Below are positions 1 through 35,684 of a stretch of 36,245 nucleotides of DNA, piece by piece. Positions within the stretch are counted from its first letter, which is position 1, and every line of letters begins with the position of its first letter. Source of the stretch: a virus (lineage: Duplodnaviria > Caudoviricetes); IMG/VR virus record IMGVR_UViG_3300022890_000451, positions 1 through 36,245 of that record. One strand, given 5' to 3'. The notes below the pieces were generated by a model. That model searched no databases, had not been told where the DNA came from, and saw nothing but the letters and a program-made list of their open reading frames with translations. The position numbers were made by a program, and so were the translations under genes.

Positions 1-421
1 TAAATCCTGAGGCTCCTGATATTAATATGTTCTCGAAATCGTCATAACCTTCTTTAGCTGAATTGGTTATAGTGTCCCATAGACTTTCTTCTTTAGGAGC
101 TTCTACTGGTACTTGGGGTACTAGTTGTTGTTGTACATCTTCTCCTGGAGTGTTTACTAGTAGGTCATCTGGTACGTCTGCTATCATTTGATCTACTGTT
201 TTGAGGGCAGGGATTGCTGCTAGGCCTATGGCTCCTGCTAGTTCTGGATCCATTCCCATTGCTATAGCTTCTGATCTCTCTTTATACAGCTGTAGTTCTT
301 GCTCTTCTGGGGATACTGGTGTTGCCGAAGGTGTAACTGGTAATGGGCTGAGAGGCATTGTATCATCGGCATCTAAATCTACTCCATACTGCTTCGCCAT
401 TTGTTTTAAGTATTCGTCCAT
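1..421 (-). CDS. Internal virion (ejection) protein, N-terminal part, truncated by window edge
   Basis: Not in the ORF track. ATG at 421 overlaps the upstream stop (TAATG). The frame MDEYLKQMAKQYGVDLDADD... is open to position 1. Position at the end of a podovirus structural operon suggests the function. Confidence 0.65.
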   Translation of the reverse strand, partial: MDEYLKQMAKQYGVDLDADDTMPLSPLPVTPSATPVSPEEQELQLYKERSEAIAMGMDPELAGAIGLAAIPALKTVDQMIADVPDDLLVNTPGEDVQQQLVPQVPVEAPKEESLWDTITNSAKEGYDDFENILISGASGF

Positions 422-1617
422 TAATTACCCTTTGGTTTCATCGCTACATCTGAAGAACTTAAAAGCCTCATATTTAGTATTTTAAGTAACTTAGCATTTT
501 TAGGATCTGCAAATATTTCTATCTCTTTTTTATTATTAGTAGCTCTACGTTGTAACTGTGCAAGCATTATTCTATACGCTTTCATTTGTATAGGTGTCAT
601 ACCTTCTCTAATAGCTACTTGTCCATTACCTGATTTATCAGCTTTATACATTATTCTATCATATTTATTCCATAAAGTTGTATTATTAAGCATGCCAAGT
701 CCTCTTTTAAGCATATCAGCATGATCCCATCCACTAGGTAGAGCTGATTTAATCCATTGAAGTTCTCTGAAACCATACTGGACACCTGACTGTGTTTTAA
801 CAACTTTCATTATCATCTTTTTAAGATCTCTCATTTGTCCTAGTTGTTCTTTAGAGTATAGGTTAGCTATTCGTCCTAATCTGGCTGATACTGGAGAGCC
901 TGACATTACTTTAGATAACAATGTTGGATGTATTCCTGAATTTATTTGGTCTATCATAAAAGATATATTAGTAGTAGCCTCTCTACTACTAGTTAATGCT
1001 TTCTGTTCCCCTACTGTCCATTTCTCTCTTTTTAGTCTAGCTGCTTCCTCTCTTGTAATTCTGCCTCTTTCTGTGAACAGCTTATTTACCTCTTTGGCAT
1101 GCTGTATTTTAGCTGCTGCTTTTTCTTCTGGAGTCTGGAATGAAGCTAATTGATTTTGTTTTAATTGCATATTTATCATATCTAGTAAAGGGTTCTCTGC
1201 TGTTGGTGTTGATCCTGCTCTACTTACTAATACCTTTTCTGCTAGATCTGGTCTTGCTTGTGACAATGCTTGTAAGAACTCATCTGATTGTAGATCTACT
1301 GGTTCATTGACCGCAGGAGTAGGTAATTGTTCATCACCCTGTCCTATCATATTGGTTACTCCTCCGGCACCAATAGCACCTTGAACCATGTCTGGAATAT
1401 CTTGAGTATGTGGATTAGATTGTAAGACATCTATTAAACTCTTTTCCATTCTATTTTGCTGCATCATAGCGCCACCTAAACGGAAAGGTTCACCTAAATC
1501 TCCTTTAAAGTCTGGACCAAAGAGTACAGGACCCGCTATAGATCCTATAGATCCTAACATAGTTAACAGATTCTCACCTGTTTTACTTCTACCTTTTGAT
1601 TCTTTATCATCTGCCAT
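421..1617 (-). CDS. Putative internal virion/ejection protein
   Basis: 398 aa, helical, Q/M/A-rich, AAGGA RBS; follows the tail and GNAT genes where podoviruses place ejection proteins. Confidence 0.55.
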   Translation of the reverse strand: MADDKESKGRSKTGENLLTMLGSIGSIAGPVLFGPDFKGDLGEPFRLGGAMMQQNRMEKSLIDVLQSNPHTQDIPDMVQGAIGAGGVTNMIGQGDEQLPTPAVNEPVDLQSDEFLQALSQARPDLAEKVLVSRAGSTPTAENPLLDMINMQLKQNQLASFQTPEEKAAAKIQHAKEVNKLFTERGRITREEAARLKREKWTVGEQKALTSSREATTNISFMIDQINSGIHPTLLSKVMSGSPVSARLGRIANLYSKEQLGQMRDLKKMIMKVVKTQSGVQYGFRELQWIKSALPSGWDHADMLKRGLGMLNNTTLWNKYDRIMYKADKSGNGQVAIREGMTPIQMKAYRIMLAQLQRRATNNKKEIEIFADPKNAKLLKILNMRLLSSSDVAMKPKGN

Positions 1618-1634
1618 ATTATTTATCCTTTAGT

Positions 1635-2246
1635 TTAGAATATTCCACCGCTAGAAGTTCTGGCTCCTGTATTACTTGTAGTAGTTCCTGAAGTTCTTTT
1701 CTTTTCTCCTCTGGATGTCTGAGCCATCTGTTGTAATGTCTGTAATAGTCCCATACCAGGAGTTAATTCATTAACTAATTGTGCTCTAGCTGTTAATGCT
1801 TCTTGATTACGTGCTTGTATCATAGCTTGTCTTTGAAGATCTGTAGCTCTCTGTTGTTCTAGCTGTGCTGGGTATAAAGAGTTCATAGCTCCTGCTGATC
1901 CTATTTTAGACTGTCTATTTAGGGCAGTAAGTAGTGCAGAGTTGTTTCCAGTACCTTCTACGTTTAAAGCGTTTGAAGTAGCTTTATTGGCTGCTGTTTC
2001 TCTTGATTTGATGTCTTGAACACCCTTAGAGAAAGTATTAGCCACTATTGGGTCAAATCCTTCGGAAAATATAGGGGCTTTCTCTAAATTTAATGGTTGA
2101 CTTACCCTATTACCGAATAGTGACATTAGATTTCCATACCCTTGATCGAACTGGCCTTGGTATCCTTCTATGCCAGTAGGGGTAGTGGTAGTAGTCATAT
2201 CTGTAGTATCTGTACTTCGTTGTTTTGATTCTTTGGTTGAGGACAT
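1635..2246 (-). CDS. Putative DNA-transfer/pilot (ejection) protein
   Basis: 203 aa, S/T-rich termini, Q/N/G-rich helical core, AGGAG RBS; synteny. Confidence 0.55.
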   Translation of the reverse strand: MSSTKESKQRSTDTTDMTTTTTPTGIEGYQGQFDQGYGNLMSLFGNRVSQPLNLEKAPIFSEGFDPIVANTFSKGVQDIKSRETAANKATSNALNVEGTGNNSALLTALNRQSKIGSAGAMNSLYPAQLEQQRATDLQRQAMIQARNQEALTARAQLVNELTPGMGLLQTLQQMAQTSRGEKKRTSGTTTSNTGARTSSGGIF

Positions 2247-2259
2247 ATTTTACTCCTAA

Positions 2260-2547
2260 TTAGATTTGTTTTTTATATAGTGGTTGGGATCCAAATCCCA
2301 TGTGTTCTGCGTTTAAAGCATCCAGTAGTGTATTAGTGGGTATTTGAGCAGGAGTGGTAGGTGCTACATAACTTCCTATTCCTCCTAAACCACCATTTAC
2401 TAATGCTGAGTATAAGTTTCCTCCTCCTTGGAGGTTCTCTAAGGCACTCATTCCACCACCTGCTACTGCACCTGCTACTGGTCCTCCGGCTGCTGTAGCT
2501 CCTGCTGTTACTCCTAGCTTTGCTGCTTTTTTGAAGACTCCACCCAT
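2260..2547 (-). CDS. Small Gly/Ala-rich virion protein (ejection/pilot-like)
   Basis: GVTAGATAAGGPVAGAVAGGG glycine-zipper-like segment; AGGAG RBS. Confidence 0.5.
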   Translation of the reverse strand: MGGVFKKAAKLGVTAGATAAGGPVAGAVAGGGMSALENLQGGGNLYSALVNGGLGGIGSYVAPTTPAQIPTNTLLDALNAEHMGFGSQPLYKKQI

Positions 2548-3104: not shown

Positions 3105-3120
3105 AGTCTTTTCTCCTTAG

Positions 3121-4396: not shown

Positions 4397-5905
4397 TTAA
4401 TCGTAGTCTGTAAAGTCTACGGTTGAATATTCAAAGTTACCTGTATGATCTCTAATGAATAATGGGGTACTGTTATCATCTGTGTCTATTAAGACGGTAG
4501 CGTTTAAACTATTGCCACCTTCATTTTCAGAGAATAGAGGTATCCATCCTGTAATGTATGTATCAAGTAATGTGTCGTATCTTATTATGACAGTTCCTGT
4601 ATTGCCGTAGTTAGTTGATGTTACAATACTGGATATGTATAAGTAATCATCTGATGTTACTATGTTATTCCAAAAGGTGGCTAATGCTCCTCCTATTGGA
4701 ACTATTGATACTGTTTCTAAAAGTAGATCAAATACTGCTATGGCTGAATCGTATTGGGGAGTTCCTCCATTGTTTGCTAGTGTTTGATTTGATACTACTG
4801 GTATGTATAGGTTATTTCCTACTTGTACCATTGTTTTAGCTAGGTATGCGTAGGTAGTAGTGAATGTATTTGCTAATGTAAATGTGTTTATTTGTACTTT
4901 AGCTATGCTTGCTGATACGTTTCCTAGATTGGTGTATAGGCAGTAAAGAGAGCCTCCTATTTTTAATATTTCACCTGGGTAGCAATAGGAATCTGTGGCA
5001 TCTAGGGATAATGTTGTTAATGCTTCAGTTGTTTTATTTACTCTGCTTATGTATGTCTTTTTAGTGGCTGAGTTTGTGTGTGTGAAATATATATTAGTAT
5101 CATCTACTAGTAGTGAGGATATGTTTTTAACTGTTAGTACTATAGTGTATAAATGGTCTAATGTGAATGTAGTTAGGTCTACTTTAGTTACGAATATTCT
5201 ATTGGCTGCTCCATATTGGTAGGTAATAGCGTATAGGAAGCCGTCGGCTGCTATGGTTAATGCACTAAGTCCTGCATCTATGTTGGCACCTAGGTTTAGG
5301 TAGTCTGTGGTTCCTGTGGTTCTATTTACTCTGTATATCATTCTTTGGTTAGTTGCTAGAAATCCTCCTGTGGCTGTTATGTAGAAGTAGTCTCCGTCTG
5401 TTACTACTGAATTGAACTGGTCTGCTTTATAGTTATTTAGTCCCCATAGGGCTTGGTTAGTGAAGTTCTTTACTACTGTTGGTTTGAATGTTACTTGTAT
5501 GTCTTCTATTTGTTCTATTACTATTTCTTGTGTTATGTTTTCTACTGTTGTATTTGTATTGGCGTAGCCGTCTCCACCTTCTGCTTTTAATGATTCACTT
5601 GTTATTGGAGGTCCAAATATTATTAGTATTTTGTAGTTTACTGAAGGTTTAGTAGATCTTATATCCATGTACTTATTGTCTATTCCTTGAACATATACAT
5701 CTCCTACTAGTGGTAACCAGCCTACTGGTCTACGTGCTGATGAATGGTTTACTAAATTCTTAGTATCTGATCCTTTAGTGGTTCCTTCTAGTACACGTAG
5801 GGACATATTATCTAAAGATACATTACCGCCTAATACGTTTCTAATAGATTCAAAGTTTTCTTGAACTATTTTATCTATTTTTGTATCTTCTATAATGGGT
5901 TTCAT
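4397..5905 (-). CDS. Tail-associated protein with probable beta-propeller (receptor-binding candidate)
   Basis: Recurrent blade-like units (DGDYFYIT, DGFLYAI, DDTNIYFT, GGSLYCL, GNNLYIP, DDYLYIS). Confidence 0.6.
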   Translation of the reverse strand: MKPIIEDTKIDKIVQENFESIRNVLGGNVSLDNMSLRVLEGTTKGSDTKNLVNHSSARRPVGWLPLVGDVYVQGIDNKYMDIRSTKPSVNYKILIIFGPPITSESLKAEGGDGYANTNTTVENITQEIVIEQIEDIQVTFKPTVVKNFTNQALWGLNNYKADQFNSVVTDGDYFYITATGGFLATNQRMIYRVNRTTGTTDYLNLGANIDAGLSALTIAADGFLYAITYQYGAANRIFVTKVDLTTFTLDHLYTIVLTVKNISSLLVDDTNIYFTHTNSATKKTYISRVNKTTEALTTLSLDATDSYCYPGEILKIGGSLYCLYTNLGNVSASIAKVQINTFTLANTFTTTYAYLAKTMVQVGNNLYIPVVSNQTLANNGGTPQYDSAIAVFDLLLETVSIVPIGGALATFWNNIVTSDDYLYISSIVTSTNYGNTGTVIIRYDTLLDTYITGWIPLFSENEGGNSLNATVLIDTDDNSTPLFIRDHTGNFEYSTVDFTDYD

Positions 5906-7806
5906 TCTGTTATTATCCTATATAGTAATCTCATGGCTTTGATTGCAAATTGTGCATCTAAATCATCATTGTAGAATCCAAATCTTCCTACGTATGCTTT
6001 TCTATTTGGAAAGAAGCTTATTGCTGAATATATTAGGCCAGCCCATTTGAATGTGGCCCATTTAGCTGTGGCCCATTTGGTACTGGTGGTTATTGTAGCT
6101 GTTTCTGTTTTTACTACTGATTCACTACCATTCTCTTCCCAAGTGTTGTTTAATATGTTATCAGGGGATGCTGAATTAGTGGTAGCTAGGTATTTTATTG
6201 AATGGAATGATTTTAACATCATGGCATCTCTACCTGGTTCCCATTGGCATTTTACTCTAAAGTATATTGGATCTCCATCATCATTAGTGCCGTAGTTGTA
6301 TCTACATACTTTACCGTTGGAGTTACTACTACCAAAGTAATGTTCTGTTTGGTTGTTTATAGTGGTTTCCCATATTGATGCTATTGGGAGTCCTGGGTGT
6401 GAACTGTTTATAGGACCTGGGCTAAACATTGTCCATGCTATTACAGGATAGTTTTGGTAGTGGGCTATTAGTTGATAGTCTGGTTCTGTTTTACCTTCTC
6501 TGGTTGCAGATATTATTATTTGTAGATTCGATGATATTACTACACTACTTGCTTTGTATGCTTGGTCTTTGTTTAAGCTACGAATAGTATCTCTTATTCT
6601 ACTGGCTATTGGGACTACGTCTACTCCGTTAGTCATGTATATGTTGTCTTTACCTAGCCATCCCATTTTACCTGCTACTTCAAATATTGAATGATGATTG
6701 GTTCCTGTACAATCATCTGATAGTCTTCTGTATAGGTACTTGGTGGAGCCTCCTGTTTCTAGTCCTCCTATTGTTAGGTCTAGTGGGATTAGTTTTCCTA
6801 CTTTCTTTTCTTTAACTACTCCTACTTTAGTATCTATTAGGCCTAATCCTATTATTTTATCTTTATCGTTTAGGTCACAGTCTATGAAGTCTGTTGCTTG
6901 GAATGATTCGAACATGGAGCCATTGATGCCTATTTTAGAGTGATGTATTCTATTAGGATTGGAAGCGAAGCCTCCTACGAATAGTCTGCTGTCTAAGAGT
7001 ATGGCAAATTTGGCTGGTTCTGGGAGTCTTTCGTTGTCTATTTCTAATTCATCTCCTAAGACTGCATCTGATATGGTTGATTCATATGTGGTGGCATCTA
7101 TGTCTGCTGTGCCATCTAGGAAGAATATGGAGCCTCCTGATACTGTTCTATATACCTTTATTTGGTCTGATAGGGAGTTACCTGGAGTTATTTGTATTGT
7201 GATACCTCCGTTGGCTCCTGCATCTAGTGTTGCTGATGGTAATGATGGGGATGATTCTGCTCCTGATAATGTATTATAGTAGGTGTATACATATAAGTAA
7301 TGACCATCTATGTTTAAGTCTCCTGATATGTTGCTGTGTATTGTTGGTATTACCGTAGGAGCATCTATTCCTATTTGTTTAGTAGTGGTTCCGTCATACT
7401 GGAAATCTTCTTCTCCTGTAAATACAAATAGTGCTGTACGTACTTGTAGCATGCAAGGTTTAATGCCGTCTGGTAGTCCTGTTTTAATGCTGTCTAAAGT
7501 AGTTCCATTCTTACGAGCTAGTATTCCACTATTACCTGTGGCGGTAGTTGATACTAGGTATACTATTGTTTCTATTGTACCATCTGGTTTAATGTAGTCT
7601 ATACCTTCTCTTGGAATGTAGTTTCCTTTAGCTCCTGTTACTGTGGTATATCCATTACGAGTTTTAATGATGTCTGCATTAATCATTTCACCATTTAGAC
7701 ATTCAGATAGAGTGTTGGCTATGTTCTCTGATTCTAAAGGTGTAGTGTTATCTACACCATTTATGAATGTTCTAGTTGGTAGGTATTGTTTGGATTTAGT
7801 TGCCAT
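5902..7806 (-). CDS. Tail nozzle/stabilisation protein (tubular protein B, P22 gp10-like)
   Basis: 634 aa; N-terminal F.NG.D...C.N.....D.IKTRNGY pattern, beta-rich; follows the adaptor gene. Confidence 0.7.
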   Translation of the reverse strand: MATKSKQYLPTRTFINGVDNTTPLESENIANTLSECLNGEMINADIIKTRNGYTTVTGAKGNYIPREGIDYIKPDGTIETIVYLVSTTATGNSGILARKNGTTLDSIKTGLPDGIKPCMLQVRTALFVFTGEEDFQYDGTTTKQIGIDAPTVIPTIHSNISGDLNIDGHYLYVYTYYNTLSGAESSPSLPSATLDAGANGGITIQITPGNSLSDQIKVYRTVSGGSIFFLDGTADIDATTYESTISDAVLGDELEIDNERLPEPAKFAILLDSRLFVGGFASNPNRIHHSKIGINGSMFESFQATDFIDCDLNDKDKIIGLGLIDTKVGVVKEKKVGKLIPLDLTIGGLETGGSTKYLYRRLSDDCTGTNHHSIFEVAGKMGWLGKDNIYMTNGVDVVPIASRIRDTIRSLNKDQAYKASSVVISSNLQIIISATREGKTEPDYQLIAHYQNYPVIAWTMFSPGPINSSHPGLPIASIWETTINNQTEHYFGSSNSNGKVCRYNYGTNDDGDPIYFRVKCQWEPGRDAMMLKSFHSIKYLATTNSASPDNILNNTWEENGSESVVKTETATITTSTKWATAKWATFKWAGLIYSAISFFPNRKAYVGRFGFYNDDLDAQFAIKAMRLLYRIITE

Positions 7807-8522: not shown

Positions 8523-8524
8523 AA

Positions 8525-9913: not shown

Positions 9914-10179
9914 TATATTTCCTCATTTAATATTTGTACTAGGTCTGCTCCTAGGCTTACTGCTTCATCTAATAGTTCTTGTGCTAAATCTTTCTTTATC
10001 TTGAGTTCATTGATTTGTCTAATCATTTCCTTCTTAGGTAGTTCTTTAATACCTTTTCTATTGCTCATGTGTTCTATGTTCTTTATTTGAGCTTCGCAAG
10101 TAGTGACCTCTTGTATTTTACGTCTTATATTAATACTCTCTTCACCTTTAGTTAATACACTTCCATTTAAAGTACTCAT
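9913..10179 (-). CDS. Charged coiled-coil protein (88 aa), possible chaperone
   Basis: AAGGAG RBS before ATG 10179; K/E/I/L-rich helical sequence. Confidence 0.6.
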   Translation of the reverse strand: MSTLNGSVLTKGEESINIRRKIQEVTTCEAQIKNIEHMSNRKGIKELPKKEMIRQINELKIKKDLAQELLDEAVSLGADLVQILNEEI

Positions 10180-19225: not shown

Positions 19226-19360
19226 TATTACCGTAGGTGTATATAGTATGTAATGTTATAATATATACATATGCATATATATACATATATACGCAGAGGT
19301 TTTGGGCAATGCAGACCCCACCCCGCTAATAATGCGCTGTAGCATACACCTACGGCAATA
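19226..19360. repeat. 17-bp inverted repeat with ~100-bp spacer
   Basis: TATTACCGTAGGTGTAT (19226-19242) and ATACACCTACGGCAATA (19344-19360), one mismatch. Confidence 0.8.
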
Positions 19361-19567
19361 AAGGCAATAATAGGTAACATATAGACGTATAGAAGTGTAT
19401 AGAATGGGTATTTATCCGATAATTTGTATAATATTCCTTCTAATCTCTTATATAGGGAATGTACCTAATATGCAATAGTAATTGTTAGTGTTTACCTTAT
19501 ATAATCTTTACCGACGGAGTATCCTATGTTCTATTAATTCTATTAAGTAGGCTAGTAACACCAATAC

Positions 19568-20458: not shown

Positions 20459-20476
20459 GTTACACCCCTTCGGTAA

Positions 20477-21562: not shown

Positions 21563-21581
21563 ATTATACCCCTTCGGTTAA

Positions 21582-23497: not shown

Positions 23498-23632
23498 ATG
23501 GAACGAATAGAAAGCTGTGTAATATGTGGTGAACCGTTATCAGTAGATAGAGTTATGAATGGTATTTCTATATGTGATGAATGTGAGGAGTTATCAACTA
23601 CCGAAGGAGAATGTTATGATAAAGAGGATTAG
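23498..23632 (+). CDS. Small zinc-finger protein (44 aa)
   Basis: MERIESCVICGEPL...ICDECEE; AAGGA RBS. Confidence 0.6.
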   Translation: MERIESCVICGEPLSVDRVMNGISICDECEELSTTEGECYDKED

Positions 23633-24170
23633 TATATTACTTTTATTGCTATTTATAGCTTCATGTGGTAGAACCTCCGGCAAGTTTGATCAAAATGATA
23701 CAACACCATTAACGTGTCAAGAAATGTATAGTCAAGAGTTTTGTGATAGTATTAGAGGAGAGGATGGTGAGTCTATTACTGGTGCCGAAGGATTATCAGG
23801 AGAGAATGGTATTAATGGAATAGATGGTGAGGATGCAGAGCCTTGCACAGTAGTTGGTGTATTAGATGAGGACACAGGAGACACAGGAGCCTTAATAACG
23901 TGCCCAACTAGCCAAGCTATAGTATGGGATGGGGTAGAGGGAGAAGATGGATCAGATGCCATCCTGGAGGTTATAGACCCCTGCGGTAAAGAAACTACTT
24001 ATGATGAAGTATTGTTTAGACTATCTGATGGTAATATATATGCTGTATATGCACACATTAAAGGTAATAAATATGAAATAATGTTGACACAGCTTATTAA
24101 TTCATGGTATATAACAACTGATGGCACAGATTGTAATTTTAACCTATTCAATGGTGAGGTAACCTGGTGA
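23616..24170 (+). CDS. Lipoprotein with short collagen-like G-X-Y repeats
   Basis: MIKRISILLLLLFIASC lipobox; GAEGLSGENGINGIDGED; Cys-rich C-terminal domain; AAGGAG RBS. Confidence 0.8.
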   Translation: MIKRISILLLLLFIASCGRTSGKFDQNDTTPLTCQEMYSQEFCDSIRGEDGESITGAEGLSGENGINGIDGEDAEPCTVVGVLDEDTGDTGALITCPTSQAIVWDGVEGEDGSDAILEVIDPCGKETTYDEVLFRLSDGNIYAVYAHIKGNKYEIMLTQLINSWYITTDGTDCNFNLFNGEVTW

Positions 24171-25483
24171 GAAATAAGATTATAAAAGTATGGAAAGATG
24201 AGGATAACAGAAGATGGTACTTACCTGACTGTGATGACTTTCCTTATATATCCTCTTCAACATTGGTAGGCATAGCCAAGACTTATAGGTATAGAGGTTT
24301 TAAGAAAGATGATAAATCAGCTAAGAGATTACAGAAAGCTGGTCAAATAGGTACTAATATACATGCTGTATTTGAACAATATAATAGGAAACAACTAGGA
24401 GAAGACTTCTATGTAGATCCTAAGATATGTACTAGATATAATCAAATACTACTCAATTATATTAAGAAAGTAGAATTAATATCTCTTAATGAAGGAGAGG
24501 TTAAAGTAGTAGAGGTAGAACGTGGTGTTATTAACTCCTTATACAAGTATGCTGGTAGATTTGATGTATTAGTTACCGTAGGAGGAGAATATGAGATATG
24601 GGATTATAAAACAAGTAGACAAGTAAAAGAAGAGGACGGCTGGCAGTTAGCTAGTTATATGCTTGCATTGCTCCTAGAGGGGATTAAAGTAAAAAGAGTA
24701 CGTATCATACACATAGATAAAATATCCTATAAGATAACAGATTTAAAATATCGACATCATGGATATATGATACGTAAGTTTCTAGGACTAATGGACACAT
24801 TTAAAGGAATGTACTTTAATGACCTATTAAGAGGCCGTATTAATGATATAGATGAACTAGGTAAGAAATATAAATGGCCTTTAGACGAATTACTTAAGTG
24901 TTATGTAATAGACTATAATAAACAAGAGGAGAACATTATGGAACTACAAGAAGTAACAGGACTAGGAGACAAGAAAACATTTGTCAAAGATCCTAACAGA
25001 GTAGATTTTAGTGATGGAGAAGTAATTGGCACCCTATTAGGTGCTGTGCCTAGCCGATGGGTACACAAAGCCGGCAAGAAAGTATTTGCATGTACCGGTA
25101 AGGATAAGTGTGAGAGATGTAAGTTAGGTATGAAGAAAGCAGTACAGTTTAAAGCCAATTTCTTAACACTAGATGCTACAGATAAACCAGTTATTAAATA
25201 CATAGTATCTGAATCAATTAGACTGTTCTTTGCTTTAAATGGAGCTATGAAAGAAATAGCCGCTAATGATGGTGATACTAGAACAGCAGTAATAAGGATA
25301 GAAAGATCAGGTACAGGATATGATACACAGTACAAAGTAGAAAGTATTGCACCTAAGTGTAAAGCATTACAGAACATAGCTGAAACTATTAAAGATATGG
25401 AACCACATGAATTAACATTTGATCCACTTGAAGATGATGGAGATCAAGGTGATACCCCTGATAGAACAGATATTGTAGAGTAA
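24167..25483 (+). CDS. PD-(D/E)XK exonuclease fused to probable ssDNA-binding protein
   Basis: GTNIH..FE, YAGRFD, WDYKTS, WQLASY; second domain H..C..C..C, IERSGTGYDTQY, acidic tail; internal GAGGAG-ATG at 24938. Confidence 0.75.
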   Translation: MRNKIIKVWKDEDNRRWYLPDCDDFPYISSSTLVGIAKTYRYRGFKKDDKSAKRLQKAGQIGTNIHAVFEQYNRKQLGEDFYVDPKICTRYNQILLNYIKKVELISLNEGEVKVVEVERGVINSLYKYAGRFDVLVTVGGEYEIWDYKTSRQVKEEDGWQLASYMLALLLEGIKVKRVRIIHIDKISYKITDLKYRHHGYMIRKFLGLMDTFKGMYFNDLLRGRINDIDELGKKYKWPLDELLKCYVIDYNKQEENIMELQEVTGLGDKKTFVKDPNRVDFSDGEVIGTLLGAVPSRWVHKAGKKVFACTGKDKCERCKLGMKKAVQFKANFLTLDATDKPVIKYIVSESIRLFFALNGAMKEIAANDGDTRTAVIRIERSGTGYDTQYKVESIAPKCKALQNIAETIKDMEPHELTFDPLEDDGDQGDTPDRTDIVE

Positions 25484-25501: not shown

Positions 25502-26197
25502 ATGTTTAAGAAGACACAACATAAACCGTATTTAATTATTCCAGATACACATGCACCTTATCATCATAAGGACACCATCAAGTTCCTTAAGGCAGTATAT
25601 AAGAGGTTTAATTGTCAAGATAAGGTGATACATATAGGAGATATATTTGACTTTCATGCCATTAGTAAGTATACAGTAGAACCAGATGCACCTACGGCAA
25701 AGGATGAGTACCAAAAGGCATTAAAGTTCAGTAAGGAGCTATGTAAAGCATTTCCTAAAGGAGTATTAATAATAGGTAACCATGATACCAGAGCTACATC
25801 TACATTAAAAGCAATGGGAATACCTATGGAGTTTATGAAGTCATCTAAGGAACTATTCGGATTAACTAAAGGATGGAAAGTAGAACCACTATGCCATGTA
25901 ATTAAAGAACTAGATGTATTATGTGAACATGGTAACAATAGTACCGGCCCTAATGGAGCATTAAACACAGCTATATTTAAACGTACTAGCTTTGTTCAGG
26001 GCCATTGCCATAGTGAAGCAGGATGTAAGTACAGTGCTAACCACGATAGCTTAATATTTGGTATGAATGTAGGCTGTTTAGTGGATAATACATCTCTAGC
26101 TATGAGATATGGCAAATACTTAAAGAAAAAAGGTGTATTAGGATGTGGTCTAGTATACTCAAATAGTCATGCAGAGTTTATACCAATGGAGATATGA
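25502..26197 (+). CDS. Calcineurin-like metallophosphoesterase
   Basis: DTH, GDIFD, GNHD, HG, GHCH motifs. Confidence 0.9.
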   Translation: MFKKTQHKPYLIIPDTHAPYHHKDTIKFLKAVYKRFNCQDKVIHIGDIFDFHAISKYTVEPDAPTAKDEYQKALKFSKELCKAFPKGVLIIGNHDTRATSTLKAMGIPMEFMKSSKELFGLTKGWKVEPLCHVIKELDVLCEHGNNSTGPNGALNTAIFKRTSFVQGHCHSEAGCKYSANHDSLIFGMNVGCLVDNTSLAMRYGKYLKKKGVLGCGLVYSNSHAEFIPMEI

Positions 26198-26699: not shown

Positions 26700-27059
26700 A
26701 TGAAAAAGAAACGTATTAAAGATCCTGAGTTTAAAGTGTATATAGAGGGACTACCCTGTTATATATGTGGCCATAAAGCTGATGGGTATAGGAGTATATA
26801 TAGTGAGTATACTGATACGTTTAAGAAGAAACCTTGTAAGAATACTGCACATCATTGTGATGTAGATAGGACTAGAGCTAAGAACGATCATAGAGTATTA
26901 CCTTTATGTGGTCACTATGTAATAAGTGGTAAAGGTACTTGTAATTGTCATAATATTGTTCATTCCGAAGGAGTGTACAAAACTAAAGAATCACTAGAGA
27001 AGCTTAGTAAAGATGCTGATAAGTATTATGAAGAGTATCTTAAACTAAAGGAGAATTAG
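26700..27059 (+). CDS. Zn-binding HNH-like protein (DUF968-like)
   Basis: LPCYICG...AHH...VLPLC...CH..VH. Confidence 0.65.
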   Translation: MKKKRIKDPEFKVYIEGLPCYICGHKADGYRSIYSEYTDTFKKKPCKNTAHHCDVDRTRAKNDHRVLPLCGHYVISGKGTCNCHNIVHSEGVYKTKESLEKLSKDADKYYEEYLKLKEN

Positions 27060-27542
27060 ATGAAAGCCTATTTAGCAGGTGGTATTGATAGAAGAGATGA
27101 TAGAGGCATGACCTGGAGAAGACTAATTACTCCAATGCTATCTGATATAGGCATAGAAGTCTATAATCCATGTATAGAAGAGAATGATATATTTGAGAAA
27201 CATAATGTAGCACCTAGTGAATTAGAAACTACTAAGAAGTATAACTTTGAAATAACTAAAGAATTAGGACATGATATCTGTGAAAGAGATATATCAGCAA
27301 TCAAGAAATGTGATATGATGATAGTATATTATGACCGTTCAGTAAATCTCTCCTCCGGTACAGTATCGGAGATGACTTTAGCTAAACATATATTCAAAAT
27401 GCCAATATATTGTATTAAGAAGGTATCTAAAAAAGATATACCATTATGGACTTGTGGTACACTATACTCTAATGTACCAGAATTTAAAAACTTAGAAGAG
27501 TGTGTAAGCTATATTAGAAAGGAACATAAGAATGGGATATAA
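27060..27542 (+). CDS. Nucleoside 2-deoxyribosyltransferase/NMP hydrolase-like protein
   Basis: YLAG, WR, VYNP, D...I..CD, SSGTVSE. Confidence 0.8.
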   Translation: MKAYLAGGIDRRDDRGMTWRRLITPMLSDIGIEVYNPCIEENDIFEKHNVAPSELETTKKYNFEITKELGHDICERDISAIKKCDMMIVYYDRSVNLSSGTVSEMTLAKHIFKMPIYCIKKVSKKDIPLWTCGTLYSNVPEFKNLEECVSYIRKEHKNGI

Positions 27543-27719: not shown

Positions 27720-28469
27720 ATGCTTACCATAGGAGAAATAGTAAACTATAAAGGTGTAGCCTATAGCACTGTTGCTAATCCTTGTGTAGTATTGAAGGTA
27801 GACCCTGGTTCAGCATACCCCTTTATTGTCCAAGATAGTAATAATAACACCTGGTGCTTTGAGGAAAAGGACCTAGAAGCAGTACCTAATGATGAAGAGA
27901 AGGACTGTGACTGTATAAGCTGTAAAGGTGATGGATGTACTAAGTGTAGTGTTAATAGTTTAGATAATTATGAGCTAAGGGTAGATCAAGCATTACCGGA
28001 GGATTATACAGGAATTGCATTACAAAAGTATACAAAAAAGAAGAATGATGCACTTGATAGAATGTGCAAAGAAAATAAGGAGCCTGATCCTGTGGTGATT
28101 AAAGAAATGACAGATAGAATACTACAAGACTTCGGAGATCCTTCGGCAGAAGAAATAGAAACTAACTCTAAAGGCGGTAAGAATAGTAAGATAGGAGTAA
28201 GATATGACCTAATACCTCCATTAGCTATTAAAGAGTTAGCTAAAGTATTAGAACAAGGATCTAAGAAGTATGACGAATGGAACTGGTTGAACGTAGATGT
28301 AAATCAACACATTAATCATGCTTTAAACCATATATTTGAATCACTAGTAAACAAATCTGAGAATAATACTAGTGAAACTATAGAACAAAATAGAATAGAA
28401 GAACTATCACATGCTTTCTGTAGATTAGGGATGGCATTAGAACTACTACTAAGAAGGAGACTTAAATGA
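27720..28469 (+). CDS. dATP/dGTP diphosphohydrolase (DUF5664) domain protein with N-terminal extension
   Basis: RYDLIPPLAIKELAKVL..G..KY.E.NW...H..HA..H...LSHA. Confidence 0.8.
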   Translation: MLTIGEIVNYKGVAYSTVANPCVVLKVDPGSAYPFIVQDSNNNTWCFEEKDLEAVPNDEEKDCDCISCKGDGCTKCSVNSLDNYELRVDQALPEDYTGIALQKYTKKKNDALDRMCKENKEPDPVVIKEMTDRILQDFGDPSAEEIETNSKGGKNSKIGVRYDLIPPLAIKELAKVLEQGSKKYDEWNWLNVDVNQHINHALNHIFESLVNKSENNTSETIEQNRIEELSHAFCRLGMALELLLRRRLK

Positions 28470-28564: not shown

Positions 28565-28579
28565 CCGAAGGAGTAAGGT

Positions 28580-28889: not shown

Positions 28890-30677
28890 TTGAGTAAGAT
28901 ACCAAAGGTATTAGATGTAGAGACTACCGGACTTAACTGGACTAAATGCGGTATTATAGGCTGGGGATCTTACAGCAAACAAGATAAAGATATCAGCTTT
29001 ACTAAAGATATTGAATCAGAAGAGAAGTATGAGTATATCTACCATAATGGCTCATTTGATGTTAAAGTAGCACATAAGAATGGAATAGAGTTACCATTTG
29101 ATCATGATACTATACTAATGGCTAGTTTATTACAGTATAGGAATAGTGTTAAAGAGTATTACTATAATAGTTATGATGAAGAGACTAAACTTAAAGAGAG
29201 TCTATCCTTAGATGCGTTAGCTAAGAAAGACCTAGATATTCAAAATACCTGGAAAATAGACTGGAATAAAGATACTCCTACTTATGATGAGATTAAAGAA
29301 CATTGTCTAATGGATTGTAGAGTAACTTACCACCTGTTTGAAATATATAAGGAAAGACTTATTAATAATGGACTGTGGGAGTACTACGTTAAACTAATGA
29401 TGCCCTTTGCTAGGATGTTAGTAGATGTAGAGTGTGCAGGTATTAGATTAGATTTAGCGAAGCTAACCAAACTTAAAGCAGATTATGGAGAACGATTAAA
29501 AGTATGGGAAGTTGTATTCCGTAAAACTCATAAAGAAGTACTGGATATAGTAAGTAGACATTTGATCCGAGATAAAATAGCTAAAGTAAAACCTGGTAAG
29601 AAACCTGAAACTAAACAAAATAGAATAGATAAGATAGTTAAGGATGGCATTGAATTTAACCCAAGATCTAATGTACATATGAATAAGTTATTAGAACTTA
29701 AAGGATTAGAGATAAAGGATAAGAATGGTAAAAGAACTAGCTCCTCTAAGTTATTATATAGGTATAGACATGATCCAGTAATAGGGTCTATATTAGAATA
29801 CAAGAAGATTAAAAAGATCCATAGAGACTTCTTATGTAAATGGGACGATTTAAGGATAGATGATGTATTATATACTAACTTTAGATTATGGGCTACTAGA
29901 ACAGGTAGACTAAGTAGTGCAGAGCCTAACTTACAGCAAGTACCTAAAGATAAAGAGATTAGAGAGTTGTTTATACCTAGAGAAGGTAAGGTGTTTACTG
30001 TAGTTGATGCTAAACAAATGGAAGCAAGGCTAGCTGCATACTTCAGTAAAGAGCCTAATCTTATTAAAGCATTTAAGGATGGTACAGATGTATATGGACA
30101 AATAGCAATAGATCTTATGGGACTAGATTGTCTACCCAATGATGTAAAACTTAAATATCCTAAGGAGAGACAAGTAGGTAAACAGTTATTCTTAGCTAGT
30201 TTATATGGACAGGGATCTAAGAGTTTACATTTTATATTAAGTAGAGAACATGAGATAGATATTACATTAAGTGAGTGTAGGTCTTATAAGAGATTATTTA
30301 ATAAGACATACCATAAACTTATCTCCTTCGGTGAAAAACTTAAAGAAGAGGTAATGGATAAAGGTTATATTACTAATTGGTTTGGACGTAAAGTATTTAT
30401 ACCGAAGGATAAGGCGTATAGAGCTATTAATTATTATATTCAAGGGTCTAGTAGTGAATTACTATCATTCGTTCAACTGAACATAGTTAAACATCTCCCA
30501 GAGGGTGCTAGGATACTTCTATTAGTACATGACGAAGTAGTATATGAACATAAACCAGAAGATACTGATAAGATAGTTGACATCGTTAAGAAATATATGA
30601 TAGAACTAGTTAACAGCAAGTATGACATGTTTATGGATATGGACATCTCAACTGGCAAAGATTGGAGTGTAAAATGA
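28890..30677 (+). CDS. polA: Family A DNA polymerase with 3'-5' exonuclease
   Basis: DVETTG, HNGSFD, TGRLSSAEPNLQQVP, motif A DAKQMEAR, motif B R..GK...L...YG, motif C VHDE; TTG start after AGGAGG. Confidence 0.96.
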   Translation: MSKIPKVLDVETTGLNWTKCGIIGWGSYSKQDKDISFTKDIESEEKYEYIYHNGSFDVKVAHKNGIELPFDHDTILMASLLQYRNSVKEYYYNSYDEETKLKESLSLDALAKKDLDIQNTWKIDWNKDTPTYDEIKEHCLMDCRVTYHLFEIYKERLINNGLWEYYVKLMMPFARMLVDVECAGIRLDLAKLTKLKADYGERLKVWEVVFRKTHKEVLDIVSRHLIRDKIAKVKPGKKPETKQNRIDKIVKDGIEFNPRSNVHMNKLLELKGLEIKDKNGKRTSSSKLLYRYRHDPVIGSILEYKKIKKIHRDFLCKWDDLRIDDVLYTNFRLWATRTGRLSSAEPNLQQVPKDKEIRELFIPREGKVFTVVDAKQMEARLAAYFSKEPNLIKAFKDGTDVYGQIAIDLMGLDCLPNDVKLKYPKERQVGKQLFLASLYGQGSKSLHFILSREHEIDITLSECRSYKRLFNKTYHKLISFGEKLKEEVMDKGYITNWFGRKVFIPKDKAYRAINYYIQGSSSELLSFVQLNIVKHLPEGARILLLVHDEVVYEHKPEDTDKIVDIVKKYMIELVNSKYDMFMDMDISTGKDWSVK

Positions 30678-31276: not shown

Positions 31277-32266
31277 ATGATGACTGAACCTAAAAAGAAA
31301 GAGTTTAAGGATATTAATAAGGCTTATGGAGAGGATACTATTAAGTACCTTACAGATGATTATGTTACTCCTGATGAGGTAATTCCTACTGGTGTTCTTT
31401 CTCTTGATCTTGCCGTAGGAAATGGAGGGTTAGCTACTGGTACTATAATGGAAGTATATGGCCCTGAATCAGCAGGTAAGACTACTATAGCCATGTTCAT
31501 TATGAGAGAAGCACAAAGGTTAGGACATAAAGTAGCATTTGTGGATATGGAACATGCATTTGATACAGGACTAGCTAAGAACTATGGACTAGACCTTTCT
31601 CAAGTGGCTTTCTCCCAACCTGAATGTGGAGAACAGGCTTTAGGAATAGTAGAGATGTTAGTAGAAGAAGGGAATCATAAAGTTATAGTGGTAGATAGTG
31701 TAGATGCATTAGTACCTAGATCTGTTCTAGAGGGAGACTTTGGTGACAGTAATATGGGTAGGCAGGCTAAGATGATGAGTCAAGCATTAAGGAAACTTAC
31801 TCCTGCGGTATCTAAACAAGGAGTATTACTAATATTCATTAATCAAATCAGAATGAAAATAGGCATAGTATATGGCAATCCAGAAACTACTAGTGGAGGT
31901 AATGCTCTTAAATTCTACGCTAAGTATAGATTAGAAGTACGTAGGAGAGAAGTACTTAAAGACGGTACATTAGTAATAGGTGCTAAAACTAGAGTAAAGG
32001 TAGCTAAGAACAAGAAAGCACCACCTTTTAGAGAATGTATATTTACATTAATATATGGTAAGGGTACCGATACAGATCAAGAACTAGCTGATGTATCCTT
32101 AGAGCTAGGTATAGTAGATCGTAAAGGGGCCTGGATGTTCATAGATGGAGAACAGATAGGACAAGGCTCTAAGAGCATAGTAGAGAAGATTAAGTCAGAC
32201 CCAGAGTTTAAAACCATGCTTACAGATCTAGTAGCAAATAGTACTAAAGCTGAAACGAAGGAGTAA
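31277..32266 (+). CDS. recA: RecA recombinase
   Basis: GPESAGKTT, VDMEHA, SQPE.GEQAL, VVDSVDALVP, FINQIRMKIG, GGNALKFYA, KNK.APPF. Confidence 0.97.
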   Translation: MMTEPKKKEFKDINKAYGEDTIKYLTDDYVTPDEVIPTGVLSLDLAVGNGGLATGTIMEVYGPESAGKTTIAMFIMREAQRLGHKVAFVDMEHAFDTGLAKNYGLDLSQVAFSQPECGEQALGIVEMLVEEGNHKVIVVDSVDALVPRSVLEGDFGDSNMGRQAKMMSQALRKLTPAVSKQGVLLIFINQIRMKIGIVYGNPETTSGGNALKFYAKYRLEVRRREVLKDGTLVIGAKTRVKVAKNKKAPPFRECIFTLIYGKGTDTDQELADVSLELGIVDRKGAWMFIDGEQIGQGSKSIVEKIKSDPEFKTMLTDLVANSTKAETKE

Positions 32267-32879: not shown

Positions 32880-33029
32880 ATGAAACGAATAAAACAACCA
32901 ATAAATTTTAAAGAATTGGATCCTGCTACGCTAAGAGGTAAGGATTTACTTAAAGCATTAGATATAGTAATTAAAGATATTTATAAGATATTAAATGAAC
33001 TAAAGGATAACACTAATGAAACCAGATAG
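32880..33029 (+). CDS. Hypothetical protein (49 aa)
   Basis: AAGGAG RBS; MKRIKQPINF... Confidence 0.55.
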   Translation: MKRIKQPINFKELDPATLRGKDLLKALDIVIKDIYKILNELKDNTNETR

Positions 33030-34265: not shown

Positions 34266-34283
34266 TTACCAAAGGAGTACAGT

Positions 34284-34799
34284 ATGATATTAGGACTCGA
34301 TCTTAGCAGTAGTTGCACTGGTTATGGTATCTTAGATACTGAGGGTAAGGTAGTAGGCTTTGGACAGATTAGACCTCCTGCTAAGTTAGACCATGGTAAT
34401 AAGTATTTGCACATAATACATGCAGTTAGATCATTACTAATCAGCCATAATATTACTGAGGTAGTACTAGAGAGATACTTTGTAGGAGGATTTAAGACTC
34501 AAGGTACATTTATATGTGCAGAACTGAGAGGGGCTGTTTTATGCACATTGGCACAGTACTTTCCAGATGTAGATATTGTAGAGCAAATCTTCCCCTCCAC
34601 TTTAAAGAAGACTGTTACAGGTAATGGTAGAGCTATTAAGAGAGAAGTATGTGAATGTATACTTGCGAAGCTCAATATTAAATATGATGAATTATTAGGT
34701 ACTAAGAAAGCTAGATTTAAGATAGATGGTGTAACCTATTATGATGATGTCGCTGATGGACTATCATTGGCTTACTGTCATTATTTAAAAGGAGTATAG
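34284..34799 (+). CDS. ruvC: RuvC-like Holliday junction resolvase
   Basis: ILGLDLSSSCTGYG, VLE, PSTLKKTVTGNGRA.K, DDVADGL. Confidence 0.9.
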   Translation: MILGLDLSSSCTGYGILDTEGKVVGFGQIRPPAKLDHGNKYLHIIHAVRSLLISHNITEVVLERYFVGGFKTQGTFICAELRGAVLCTLAQYFPDVDIVEQIFPSTLKKTVTGNGRAIKREVCECILAKLNIKYDELLGTKKARFKIDGVTYYDDVADGLSLAYCHYLKGV

Positions 34800-34800
34800 C

Positions 34801-35391
34801 ATGTTTAGTTTTATAAGAAATCTTATTAGAAACAGTAAGAATAAACTACCTGATTTTAGAAAGTACTCTAAGATACCTAGATTCAGTAGAGAGTGTATCA
34901 TTACAGAGAAGATAGATGGTACTAATGCACAGATACTCATTACTGAAGATAATAAGGTATATGCAGGTAGTAGAAAGAGATGGATAACCCCTGGCAAACA
35001 AACAGATAATTATGGATTTGCACAATGGGTGAAAACTTATGAAAAAGAATTATTAAAGCTAGGCCCTGGTAGACACTTTGGAGAGTGGTTCGGTAAGGGT
35101 ATTAATAGGAATTATAGGTTACAGGATAAATACTTTGTACTATTCAATGTACACTTTTGGAACAGTTTAGAAGATAAACCTAATTGTGTAGGTGTAGTAC
35201 CTGTTATAATAGAGGGTATTATGTCTAGTGAGCTTATAGAGACAGCTATTGATAAACTGGAGTGTAAAGGTAGTTATTTAGTACCTGGGTTTATGAACCC
35301 TGAAGGTATTGTTATTCACCACTGTGCAAGTAACAGACTGTTTAAGAAGACTATTGTAGGAGATGATTCACCTAAAAAGAAAGGAGTATAG
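34801..35391 (+). CDS. RNA ligase (Rnl2-like adenylyltransferase domain)
   Basis: Motif I TEKIDGTN, GSRKR, GEWFGKGI, F.LF, EGIV, FKK. Confidence 0.85.
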   Translation: MFSFIRNLIRNSKNKLPDFRKYSKIPRFSRECIITEKIDGTNAQILITEDNKVYAGSRKRWITPGKQTDNYGFAQWVKTYEKELLKLGPGRHFGEWFGKGINRNYRLQDKYFVLFNVHFWNSLEDKPNCVGVVPVIIEGIMSSELIETAIDKLECKGSYLVPGFMNPEGIVIHHCASNRLFKKTIVGDDSPKKKGV

Positions 35392-35684
35392 TGCCTAACT
35401 ATAATGACTATAAATTAGAAGACTTCCCTATAGGGTATGTAAGATGTACTGAATGTGATGGACCTGCCTTATGGTTATATGAAGATACTGCAAGTGCTAA
35501 TCTACTAATAGATGAAGATAATACAGTAGTAAGTCTTAGAGTAGGTAATATACTATTAGACTACCCTATAGATGATACAGATACATATTATTGTGATAGT
35601 TGTGGTTGTTCATTAGGTAGTAGTATCATATCTAGTGAGTTTATTTATTTCTTACCGAAGGATCAAAGTATTTATGTACAATAA
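35391..35684 (+). CDS. Acidic zinc-binding protein
   Basis: CTECD...CDSCG; GTG start after AAGGAG. Confidence 0.6.
   Translation: MPNYNDYKLEDFPIGYVRCTECDGPALWLYEDTASANLLIDEDNTVVSLRVGNILLDYPIDDTDTYYCDSCGCSLGSSIISSEFIYFLPKDQSIYVQ

What the first reader, a model, noticed from the sequence alone, without database searches (positions are those of the whole stretch)
325..35661. Genome-wide over-representation of CCGNAGG/CCTNCGG, built from rare synonymous codons
Seen: at least 33 copies counted by eye. Plus-strand CCGNAGG at 325, 1311, 7353, 11815, 12889, 13677, 15591, 19231, 23601, 23785, 24576, 26965, 27996, 28565, 30402, 31413, 35655. Reverse form CCTNCGG at 1361, 2059, 2483, 11301, 17182, 19349, 20467, 21571, 21966, 23674, 23980, 25691, 27352, 28140, 30325, 31802. 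A zero-order estimate at ~35% GC gives only about 3-4. There is no strand bias. In genes it appears in several frames (GCC GAA GG, CCT TCG G, CCT ACG G, TCC TAC GG, CCG AAG G), each time through C/G-ending codons in a genome that otherwise favours A/T endings. It also forms four RBS regions and the core of the 19.2-kb inverted repeat. Inference: a DNA-level signal maintained across the genome. Options are a methyltransferase site enriched by Vsr-like T:G to C:G repair (as for CCWGG or cyanobacterial HIP1), a self-mark, a protein-loading site, or a recombination hotspot for the phage Exo/RecA.
Basis: partly seen in the sequence, partly recalled or inferred. Interest (0 to 1): 0.8.

Follow-up and report, generated by a model that had tools for sequence, protein, structure and literature searches.

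The report
Phage genome strewn with DNA mini-hairpins
This virus of bacteria carries the seven-letter word CCGNAGG about once per thousand letters on both DNA strands, far more often than chance; the word is a known, very stable fold of single-stranded DNA, and it likely accumulates because it stops DNA-chewing enzymes during the virus's predicted recombination-based copying.

Summary
In detail: 33 copies (17+, 16-) at the stated places, against about 2 in dinucleotide shuffles; 26 in genes against 2.6-4.9 in codon shuffles. The key result: of 484 CG-containing gapped heptamers, the top two are CCGNAGG and GCGNAGC, the two published GNA-triloop DNA mini-hairpins, while the unpaired mixes are not enriched. 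The whole motif is favoured, using the rarest codons. Five relatives rank CCGNAGG 1, 1, 5, 2 and 1, at lower levels; two sister phages with a DnaB-like helicase instead of RecA rank it 170 and 12; 57 unrelated virus loci average 1.10-fold. Spacing is random and positions turn over. No C5 methyltransferase, Vsr or DnaG was found in the five records searched; the host is unknown. The Vsr idea gets mixed support (CTGNAGG depleted, CCANAGG enriched). My best reading (inferred, 0.35): dispersed mini-hairpins stop exonucleases on single-stranded tails, which RecA then uses to restart replication, so the sites spread by a Chi-like drive. No folding or function was shown here. The scan's earlier notes hold no record of this motif.

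The parts
325..331 (+). CCGNAGG site (in the cut-off virion gene at the left end)
1311..1317 (+). CCGNAGG site, coding, antisense
1361..1367 (-). CCGNAGG site, coding, sense
2059..2065 (-). CCGNAGG site, coding, sense
2483..2489 (-). CCGNAGG site, coding, sense
7353..7359 (+). CCGNAGG site, coding, antisense; the only one in 2490-11300
11301..11307 (-). CCGNAGG site, coding, sense
11815..11821 (+). CCGNAGG site, coding, antisense
12889..12895 (+). CCGNAGG site in the major capsid gene, antisense
13677..13683 (+). CCGNAGG site, coding, antisense
15591..15597 (+). CCGNAGG site in the portal gene; same place in 4 of 4 aligned relatives
17182..17188 (-). CCGNAGG site in the terminase nuclease gene; same place in 1 of 3 relatives
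19225..19242 (+). left arm of the 18-nt inverted repeat (site 19231-19237), non-coding, upstream of the small terminase; a similar site lies in the same region of G004
19344..19361 (-). right arm of the inverted repeat (site 19349-19355)
20467..20473 (-). CCGNAGG site in the RBS region of the sigma-factor gene
21571..21577 (-). CCGNAGG site in an RBS region
21966..21972 (-). CCGNAGG site, coding, sense
23601..23607 (+). CCGNAGG site in an RBS region (ATG at 23616)
23674..23680 (-). CCGNAGG site, coding, antisense
23785..23791 (+). CCGNAGG site, coding, sense
23980..23986 (-). CCGNAGG site, coding, antisense
24576..24582 (+). CCGNAGG site in the exonuclease-SSB gene
25691..25697 (-). CCGNAGG site, coding, antisense
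26965..26971 (+). CCGNAGG site, coding, sense
27352..27358 (-). CCGNAGG site, coding, antisense
27996..28002 (+). CCGNAGG site using a CCG codon
28140..28146 (-). CCGNAGG site, coding, antisense
28565..28571 (+). CCGNAGG site in an RBS region
30325..30331 (-). CCGNAGG site in the DNA polymerase gene, antisense
30402..30408 (+). CCGNAGG site using a CCG codon, DNA polymerase gene
31413..31419 (+). CCGNAGG site in recA, sense
31802..31808 (-). CCGNAGG site in recA, antisense
35655..35661 (+). CCGNAGG site using a CCG codon
391..397 (-). GCGNAGC site (second mini-hairpin form; 10 copies vs 1.2 expected)
5562..5568 (+). GCGNAGC site
6965..6971 (+). GCGNAGC site
10091..10097 (-). GCGNAGC site
11295..11301 (-). 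GCGNAGC site, directly abutting the CCGNAGG site at 11301
12658..12664 (-). GCGNAGC site
16744..16750 (-). GCGNAGC site
29457..29463 (+). GCGNAGC site
32925..32931 (-). GCGNAGC site
34665..34671 (+). GCGNAGC site
24167..25483 (+). PD-(D/E)XK exonuclease, predicted fused to a gp32-like ssDNA-binding domain; candidate partner
   Evidence: Pfam PDDEXK_1 E 3.6e-10; C-terminal part resembles gp32/SSB folds, Z 5.3 at best, low-confidence model
26700..27059 (+). 119-aa Cys/His protein conserved in the clade; weak likeness to HNH folds (P1 Ref, McrA)
   Evidence: searches (E 0.077; Z 3.8): lead only
28890..30677 (+). family A DNA polymerase with 3'-5' exonuclease domain
31277..32266 (+). RecA
34284..34799 (+). 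RuvC resolvase

Best explanation
CCGNAGG matches the published GNA-triloop DNA mini-hairpin and is scattered on both strands of this phage genome; it likely folds when the DNA is single-stranded, likely halts 3' exonucleases there, and so would leave hairpin-ended tails that the phage's RecA uses to restart copying, which would spread new sites by a Chi-like drive. Shown: the count, the co-enrichment of the second mini-hairpin form GCGNAGC, the whole-motif preference, the link to the RecA-bearing clade. From papers: such 7-mers fold and resist 3' exonuclease in vitro. Inferred: that this phage, with RecA, exonuclease-SSB, RuvC and polymerase but no helicase or primase found, copies itself by recombination with long single-stranded stretches; that the fold forms in vivo; that stopping a nuclease, not something else, is what favours the sites. 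In this lineage a purine before and an A after the 7-mer are also favoured, likely through stacking or a protein that reads the fold.
For: Top two of 484 CG-containing gapped heptamers are CCGNAGG and GCGNAGC; CCGNAGC ranks 56 and GCGNAGG 313. PMC5009754 names exactly these two triloop forms; PMC13037366 says only GC-GC or CC-GG stems and only GNA triloops form it, and that it resists T4 polymerase 3' exonuclease. Reversed stems and A/T outer pairs are not enriched: GGGNACC 2/3.7, CGGNACG 0/0.4, ACGNAGT 7/6.7, TCGNAGA 7/6.8. In relatives the stems extend by a further pair more than expected: 26 of 56 vs 14.8 (p 0.001) and 17 of 36 vs 11.2 (p 0.03); GCGNAGC 34/13.7 but GCGNAGG 13/13.2. The loop G is favoured only when the rest is present: 8/11 vs 4/25 and 4/9 vs 0/25, which one-strand protection of a C cannot give. 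Relatives G003, G004, G005, G007, L072 rank CCGNAGG 1, 1, 5, 2, 1; sister phages G008, G009 (DnaB-like helicase, no RecA) rank it 170 and 12. Both strands, random spacing (CV 1.05) and turnover of positions (6/55 vs 12/202, p 0.23) fit a drive rather than fixed functional sites.
Against: No folding or function was tested; standard nearest-neighbour energies give +1.2 to +1.6 kcal/mol and cannot tell the strands apart, so the fold rests on the papers. GCGNAGC, the more stable stem type in vitro (76.5 vs 65.0 C for the tetraloop forms), is the rarer one here. CCGNNAGG is not enriched (1 in the window; 5/8.2 in relatives). In G005 and G007 the unpairable CCGNAGC ranks first (pooled 48/23.2). In the window a third pair is avoided (4 of 39 vs 27% expected, p 0.009), the opposite of the relatives. 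The RecA link is one evolutionary contrast, confounded with GC content, CpG level and probably host; G008 has GCGNAGC 27/15.6 and G009 CCGNAGG 21/10.5 by zero-order. L100, an unrelated virus with a helicase, also has the motif (11/2.2). GCGNAGC was noticed in the data before the papers were read, so only the relatives test it independently, and they are related to each other (76-80% DNA identity where aligned; G003 and G007 share 1.8 kb).
Confidence: 0.35

Rival explanations
1. Same mini-hairpin, but as a landing mark for the host primase on SSB-coated single strands (a dispersed G4/ssiA-like priming signal), about one per 2 kb per strand.
For: Mean gap per strand 1.9-2.1 kb. Known DnaG start triplets CTA/TTA/CTG (PMC2978363) lie directly 5' of 12 of 39 sites vs 19 of 134 other CCG (p 0.03). 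Mini-hairpins bind SSB poorly and CCGAAGG lies in RSF1010 ssiA (PMC13037366). No DnaG in 0 of 5 records.
Against: TTG, not a listed start triplet, is as common (7 of 39 vs 5 of 134). Gaps reach 6.0 and 8.8 kb on one strand and spacing is random. The sister phages also lack DnaG yet are not enriched. No 5' flank preference in relatives.
Confidence: 0.15
2. A neutral footprint: in single-stranded DNA the fold shields the C of CpG from loss, or a T.G wobble in the fold is repaired to C-G, so sites persist in an otherwise CpG-poor genome without any function.
For: CpG o/e is 0.33-0.52 in the clade while CGNAG sits near its zero-order level (0.75-1.5). In relatives C before GNA-G rises from about 8% to 20% at the cost of T, with the pyrimidine share unchanged (0.365 vs 0.353). 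CTGNAGG is down and CCANAGG and GCANAGC are up, the asymmetry expected if one strand is shielded. Probably explains the clade-wide 1.5-fold CGNAG excess (575/381).
Against: Does not favour the loop G or explain 8.5-fold over zero-order in this lineage, nor the flank preference. The loss of T in this context is partly generic: unrelated CpG-poor viruses show it too (0.32 vs 0.40, p 0.004). TG/CA is not raised genome-wide (1.01).
Confidence: 0.17
3. A host methyltransferase marks RCCGNAGG (or CGNAG) and Vsr-like or methyl-directed repair ratchets near-misses into sites, as proposed for HIP1.
For: CTGNAGG depleted, 7 vs 16.4-18.0. Density of one per 1.07 kb matches the set point of about one per 1000 nt in the HIP1 model (PMC4390886). 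Sequence-like flank: purine at -1 in 36 of 39 vs 80 of 134. CCGNAGC is top in two relatives.
Against: CCANAGG is enriched, not depleted, though the G is favoured too; about 4 of the CTGNAGG deficit of 13 is loss of CTGCAG. No C5 methyltransferase or Vsr in 0 of 5 records. Does not predict GCGNAGC without the mixed forms, or longer stems in relatives. Non-palindromic. Host unknown, so untested.
Confidence: 0.17
4. A plain double-stranded binding site (consensus near TRCCGNAGGA) for a phage or host protein: a Chi-, KOPS- or packaging-type mark or a nicking site for the HNH-like protein.
For: Flank preferences TR (25 of 39) and +7 A (25 of 39); third pair avoided; 6 of 33 sites in the 2,420 non-coding bases (p 0.02), four of them at RBSs, and a face-to-face pair upstream of the small terminase with a similar site in G004.
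Against: No strand skew; no candidate binder identified; GCGNAGC co-enrichment unexplained; the RBS sites share AGG with the Shine-Dalgarno word.
Confidence: 0.12

Closest known systems
DNA mini-hairpins d(GCGNAGC) / d(CCGNAGG) (PMC5009754 passage; PMC13037366 passages and sections 8 and 12)
   Same: Identical 7-mers; same allowed stems and GNA loop; reversed stems not enriched.
   Different: Natural examples in the review are single origin or promoter sites (G4, St-1, alpha3, ssiA, N4) within longer stems, and it says the frequency in natural DNA is lower than chance estimates. Here there are 33 bare two-pair copies, mostly inside genes, and the CC-GG form dominates.
RSF1010 ssiA and phage G4 priming signals (PMC13037366 section 12)
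   Same: ssiA contains CCGAAGG; the window has a face-to-face pair in a non-coding region.
   Different: No phage primase found, no long stem round the sites, dozens of dispersed copies.
Cyanobacterial HIP1 (PMC4390886 passages and section 18 part 1; PMC5861425 and PMC13756078 search listings)
   Same: Genome-wide, about one per kb, inside genes, function unclear.
   Different: Not a palindrome, no cognate methyltransferase found, random rather than quasi-periodic spacing, lower fold (about 10 vs 15-300), and in a phage.
Chi sites, DNA uptake sequences, KOPS (recalled, no call)
   Same: Short over-represented words, thought to spread by drive or selection through recombination or uptake machinery.
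   Different: No strand skew; the pattern points to a folded structure rather than a word read in duplex DNA; no RecBCD-, uptake- or FtsK-type partner identified.
Dcm/Vsr very short patch repair at CCWGG (recalled; PMC4924334 search listing only)
   Same: One C-to-T neighbour is depleted.
   Different: The other transition neighbour is enriched; no Vsr or C5 methyltransferase in the records searched.

Membership tests
GNA-triloop DNA mini-hairpin | Two G-C pairs in the order CC-GG or GC-GC | tested here: met
   CCGNAGG 33/3.2 and GCGNAGC 9/1.8 in coding DNA of window plus extension; GG-CC, CG-CG and mixed forms not enriched; rule
GNA-triloop DNA mini-hairpin | Loop G-N-A with any N | tested here: met
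   N = A 15, T 9, G 6, C 3; among the other CCxNyGG forms only CCANAGG is raised, about 1.5-1.9-fold
GNA-triloop DNA mini-hairpin | Actual folding, high melting point and exonuclease resistance in its own flanks | not testable with these tools
   Nearest-neighbour energies are positive and blind to the loop; the review says current models cannot explain the fold
GNA-triloop DNA mini-hairpin | Tetraloop relatives behave alike | tested here: inconclusive
   GCGNNAGC 25/12.2 in relatives and 5/2.1 here; CCGNNAGG 5/8.2 and 2/1.4
Methyltransferase site enriched by Vsr-type repair | Cognate C5 methyltransferase and Vsr in the phage | tested here: not met
   0 of 5 records for PF00145 and PF03852; G000 and G002 are incomplete
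Methyltransferase site enriched by Vsr-type repair | Cognate enzymes and enrichment in the host | not testable with these tools
   No host found
Methyltransferase site enriched by Vsr-type repair | Depletion of the T-containing neighbours | tested here: inconclusive
   CTGNAGG down, CCANAGG up; loss of T partly generic
HIP1-type iterated palindrome | Palindromic word | tested here: not met
   Reverse complement is CCTNCGG (sequence)
HIP1-type iterated palindrome | About one site per kb | tested here: met
   39 sites in 41,704 bases of window plus extension
HIP1-type iterated palindrome | Quasi-periodic spacing | tested here: not met
   CV of gaps 1.05; 76% of random placements are as even or more; only 33 sites
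Chi / KOPS polar motifs | Strand skew along the genome (recalled) | tested here: not met
   9/8 and 9/7 on the two arms
Chi / KOPS polar motifs | Recognition by a recombination nuclease or translocase | not testable with these tools
   Needs biochemistry
Single-strand initiation signal (ssiA / G4 type) | Mini-hairpin inside a longer stem beside a primase start | tested here: inconclusive
   Stems not extended (4 of 39); start triplets at 12 of 39
Single-strand initiation signal (ssiA / G4 type) | Cognate primase | tested here: inconclusive
   No DnaG N domain in 0 of 5 records, no primase family in Pfam scans of 58 window ORFs and 50 ORFs of G002, G005 and L072; a host primase could serve

The most novel reading that the evidence does not exclude
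A structural Chi: a helicase-less phage has seeded both strands of its whole genome, inside its genes and at a cost in codon choice, with 7-nt DNA mini-hairpins that mark where resection stops and RecA-driven replication restarts. It would be the first genome-wide signal whose code is a single-stranded DNA fold rather than a word read in the duplex.
Probability: 0.25. Interest if true: 0.85.

Novelty: new variant of a known kind. Interest (0 to 1): 0.62.

Why it matters
The natural role of the extraordinarily stable DNA mini-hairpin has been open for decades and rests on a few single origin and promoter sites (PMC13037366, section 12). It also says that over-represented phage words should be checked for single-strand folds before being read as methylation or host-prediction signals.

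Tried and rejected
Chance, codon bias and CpG context: rejected. Assembly artefact: rejected. RNA UNCG tetraloop on the other strand: rejected, since the pair outside C-G would be C-pyrimidine in 31 of 33 sites and 13 of 26 coding sites face the other way. Promoter element: no orientation to genes. Escape from CCTNAGG restriction: only about 5-7 such sites are expected, too few to yield 33. A general property of phages: 57 dereplicated unrelated virus loci (of 79 candidates) give 1.10-fold, and 8 unrelated CpG-poor loci show no CGNAG excess. Host search failed: 0 capsid relatives in genome contigs, one irrelevant 23% RecA-like match (nothing rests on G010), only matches of 37% or less in annotated phages. 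Stacking energies as the cause of the flank preference: Spearman -0.41, p 0.12, not significant, although A has the lowest energy on both sides and the two purines on the 5' side. Structure of the exonuclease-SSB fusion: low confidence (pLDDT 45). No solved-structure sequence match for the 119-aa protein. Literature: 'CCGNAGG' occurs in 4 papers of the library, of which I opened only the aptamer paper; searches found no report of genome-wide mini-hairpin enrichment in a phage; PMC5217627 has no GNAG passage; PMC2683140 was not held; subscription journals and supplements were not seen. REBASE was not available.

Full report
What the window is. A fragment (CheckV 92%) of a tailed phage: portal, capsid, split large terminase and small terminase on the minus strand; exonuclease, family A polymerase, RecA, RuvC and RNA ligase on the plus strand; a sigma factor and a rhomboid protease. 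The near-identical record G002 extends it 5,459 bases to the left, adding a GH108 lysozyme, so the host is likely a bacterium. 23 of 24 listed runs that hold the DNA are labelled salt lake metagenome. The host was not found.

The observation. In genes there are 26 against 4.86 or 2.6 in protein-preserving shuffles. It is the most enriched xyzNuvw heptamer, 8.6-fold over zero-order, in a genome where CG-containing ones sit at a median of 0.28 (CpG o/e 0.35). Other spacings of CCG and AGG give 0-4. There is no strand bias and spacing is random (CV 1.05), although 2490-11300 holds only one site (p 0.003, a stretch chosen after the fact).

The whole word is favoured. Of 221 peptide stretches that could encode it in window plus extension, 33 do, against 6.6 expected from codon usage; the 221 exceed the 179 expected from amino-acid frequencies (p 0.001, ignoring peptide repeats). 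Half-way states are not raised: the loop G is present in 8 of 11 cases when the AGG end is there and 4 of 25 when it is not; in another frame 4 of 9 against 0 of 25. Three of six CCG codons and 9 of 56 NCG codons lie in sites. The flanks matter in this lineage: purine at -1 in 36 of 39 (80 of 134 other CCG), TR in 25 of 39, A at +7 in 25 of 39 (449 of 1165 other AGG); relatives show no 5' preference (32 of 56 vs 433 of 808).

What the word is. Among xCGNAGy only two forms stand out: CCGNAGG (33/2.1) and GCGNAGC (10/1.2); the mixes CCGNAGC and GCGNAGG are 0/1.8 and 1/1.5. They rank 1 and 2 of 484 CG-containing heptamers. PMC5009754 (one passage) names GCGNAGC and CCGNAGG as DNA mini-hairpins with two G-C pairs and a sheared G-A pair. 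PMC13037366 (passages, sections 8 and 12) adds that only GC-GC and CC-GG stems and only GNA triloops form it, that it resists T4 polymerase 3' exonuclease and binds SSB poorly, that the RNA version is far weaker, and that CCGAAGG lies in the RSF1010 ssiA priming signal. The window's spectrum follows those rules, with exceptions: the CC-GG form dominates although it is the weaker stem in the paper's tetraloop table, CCGNNAGG is not enriched, and a third pair is avoided (4 of 39). I noticed GCGNAGC in the data before reading, so the relatives are the independent test.

Relatives. Records at about 55-69% protein identity have it more weakly: pooled over seven (G003, G004, G005, G007, L072, L073, L173) CCGNAGG 51/23.0, GCGNAGC 34/13.7, ACGNAGT 54/33.3, TCGNAGA 41/32.7, GCGNAGG 13/13.2, but also CCGNAGC 48/23.2; the core CGNAG is 575/381. 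L068, L069, L070 and L074 duplicate these records or appear to, and were left out. L073 and L173 are short and show little. Stems extend more than expected (26 of 56 vs 14.8; 17 of 36 vs 11.2, six records). RecA was seen in G003, G004, G005, L072 and L073; G007 and L173 are fragments without that region. The complete G005 has no helicase over cut-off, no DnaG, no C5 methyltransferase and no Vsr. Sister phages G008 and G009 share the virion genes, have a DnaB-like helicase and no RecA, CpG o/e 1.0, and coding CCGNAGG 16/16.4 and 17/12.7, though G008 has GCGNAGC 27/15.6. This is a single contrast among related records and is confounded with base composition. 57 unrelated virus loci pool to 1.10-fold; the one clear outlier is L100 (11/2.2), whose sites sit in longer stems (13 of 16 extended). 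Positions are mostly not conserved: 6 of 55 aligned comparisons keep the site against 12 of 202 at unrealised opportunities (p 0.23); four of the six are one portal site.

Mechanism. Two layers seem present. The clade-wide 1.5-fold excess of CGNAG looks like C kept at the cost of T (20% vs about 8% C, pyrimidine share unchanged), which a fold that shields or repairs the C would give, though part of the T loss is generic. The tenfold level in this lineage needs something that favours the complete fold on either strand, including the loop G. The phage has a recombination kit (RecA, RuvC, an exonuclease predicted to be fused to a gp32-like domain, and a weakly Ref/HNH-like protein; Ref's RecA dependence is recalled) and no helicase or primase found, so I infer replication through single-stranded tails. 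A tail chewed back to a mini-hairpin would survive, invade and be copied, favouring the allele that carries it. That predicts both strands, random spacing, turnover and whole-motif dependence, all seen, but so do parts of the rivals. I give it 0.35; the fold itself as the cause about 0.65 across the best reading and the first two rivals; a methylation ratchet 0.17 (CTGNAGG down but CCANAGG up; density matches the HIP1 set point in PMC4390886 section 18); a duplex binding site 0.12.

Novelty. Iterated words (Chi, uptake sequences, KOPS: recalled; HIP1) and mini-hairpins at single origins are known. Searches found no report of genome-wide mini-hairpin enrichment in a phage, within a library that lacks most subscription journals. 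The scan's own notes have nothing on this motif; one note on another genome concerns GNA hairpins in a protist repeat. Verdict: real, unusual, new variant of a known kind, mechanism inferred; interest 0.62.

Noticed in passing
L100:1-21452 (and the overlapping L101, L102): An unrelated virus with AAA/vWA pair, helicase, polymerase A and an RNA polymerase subunit (N4-like gene order, recalled) has 16 CCGNAGG sites vs 2.2, 13 of 16 inside longer stems of up to 5 extra pairs.
   Followed up: partly
window 24167-25483 +: PD-(D/E)XK exonuclease apparently fused to a gp32-like ssDNA-binding domain, conserved at 65-66% in three relatives; no match among 50,697 annotated phage records.
   Followed up: partly
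window 26700-27059 +: Conserved 119-aa Cys/His protein; best, weak fold matches are P1 Ref and McrA-type HNH nucleases.
   Followed up: partly
window 8525-9121 - and 2514-3104 -: A rhomboid protease and a GNAT acetyltransferase sit inside the virion gene cluster and are conserved in relatives.
   Followed up: no
window 16608-18339 -: The large terminase is in two ORFs (ATPase part, nuclease part), also in G003, G004, G005, G008 and G009.
   Followed up: no
whole window: Strong avoidance of GAATTC (0/14.8), CTGCAG (0/14.8), GAATGC (0/16.5) and TCTAGA (4/24), likely host restriction sites; CTGCAG is also absent in G003 and G005.
   Followed up: no
window 19110-19135: A G-rich run upstream of the small terminase is nearly invariant in four otherwise diverged non-coding regions; possible packaging or origin element.
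   Followed up: no
window 36100-36245: The contig ends in degenerate 18-nt coding repeats; L066 ends in the same repeats with a different order of units.
   Followed up: no
window 30035-30225: A block of 7 differences in the polymerase gene is shared by 4 of 4 laid runs and by L066, suggesting a recombined tract in the window's strain.
   Followed up: no
window 20652-20674 and 21092-21114: Identical 23-nt leaders in front of two small early-region genes.
   Followed up: no
L072:1068-1496: A relative carries a Tad6-family Thoeris inhibitor next to its polymerase gene (E 1.4e-46).
   Followed up: no
G008 and G009 replication regions: Sister phages with the same virion genes have swapped replication modules: DnaB-like helicase, no RecA, and an integrase in G008.
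   Followed up: partly
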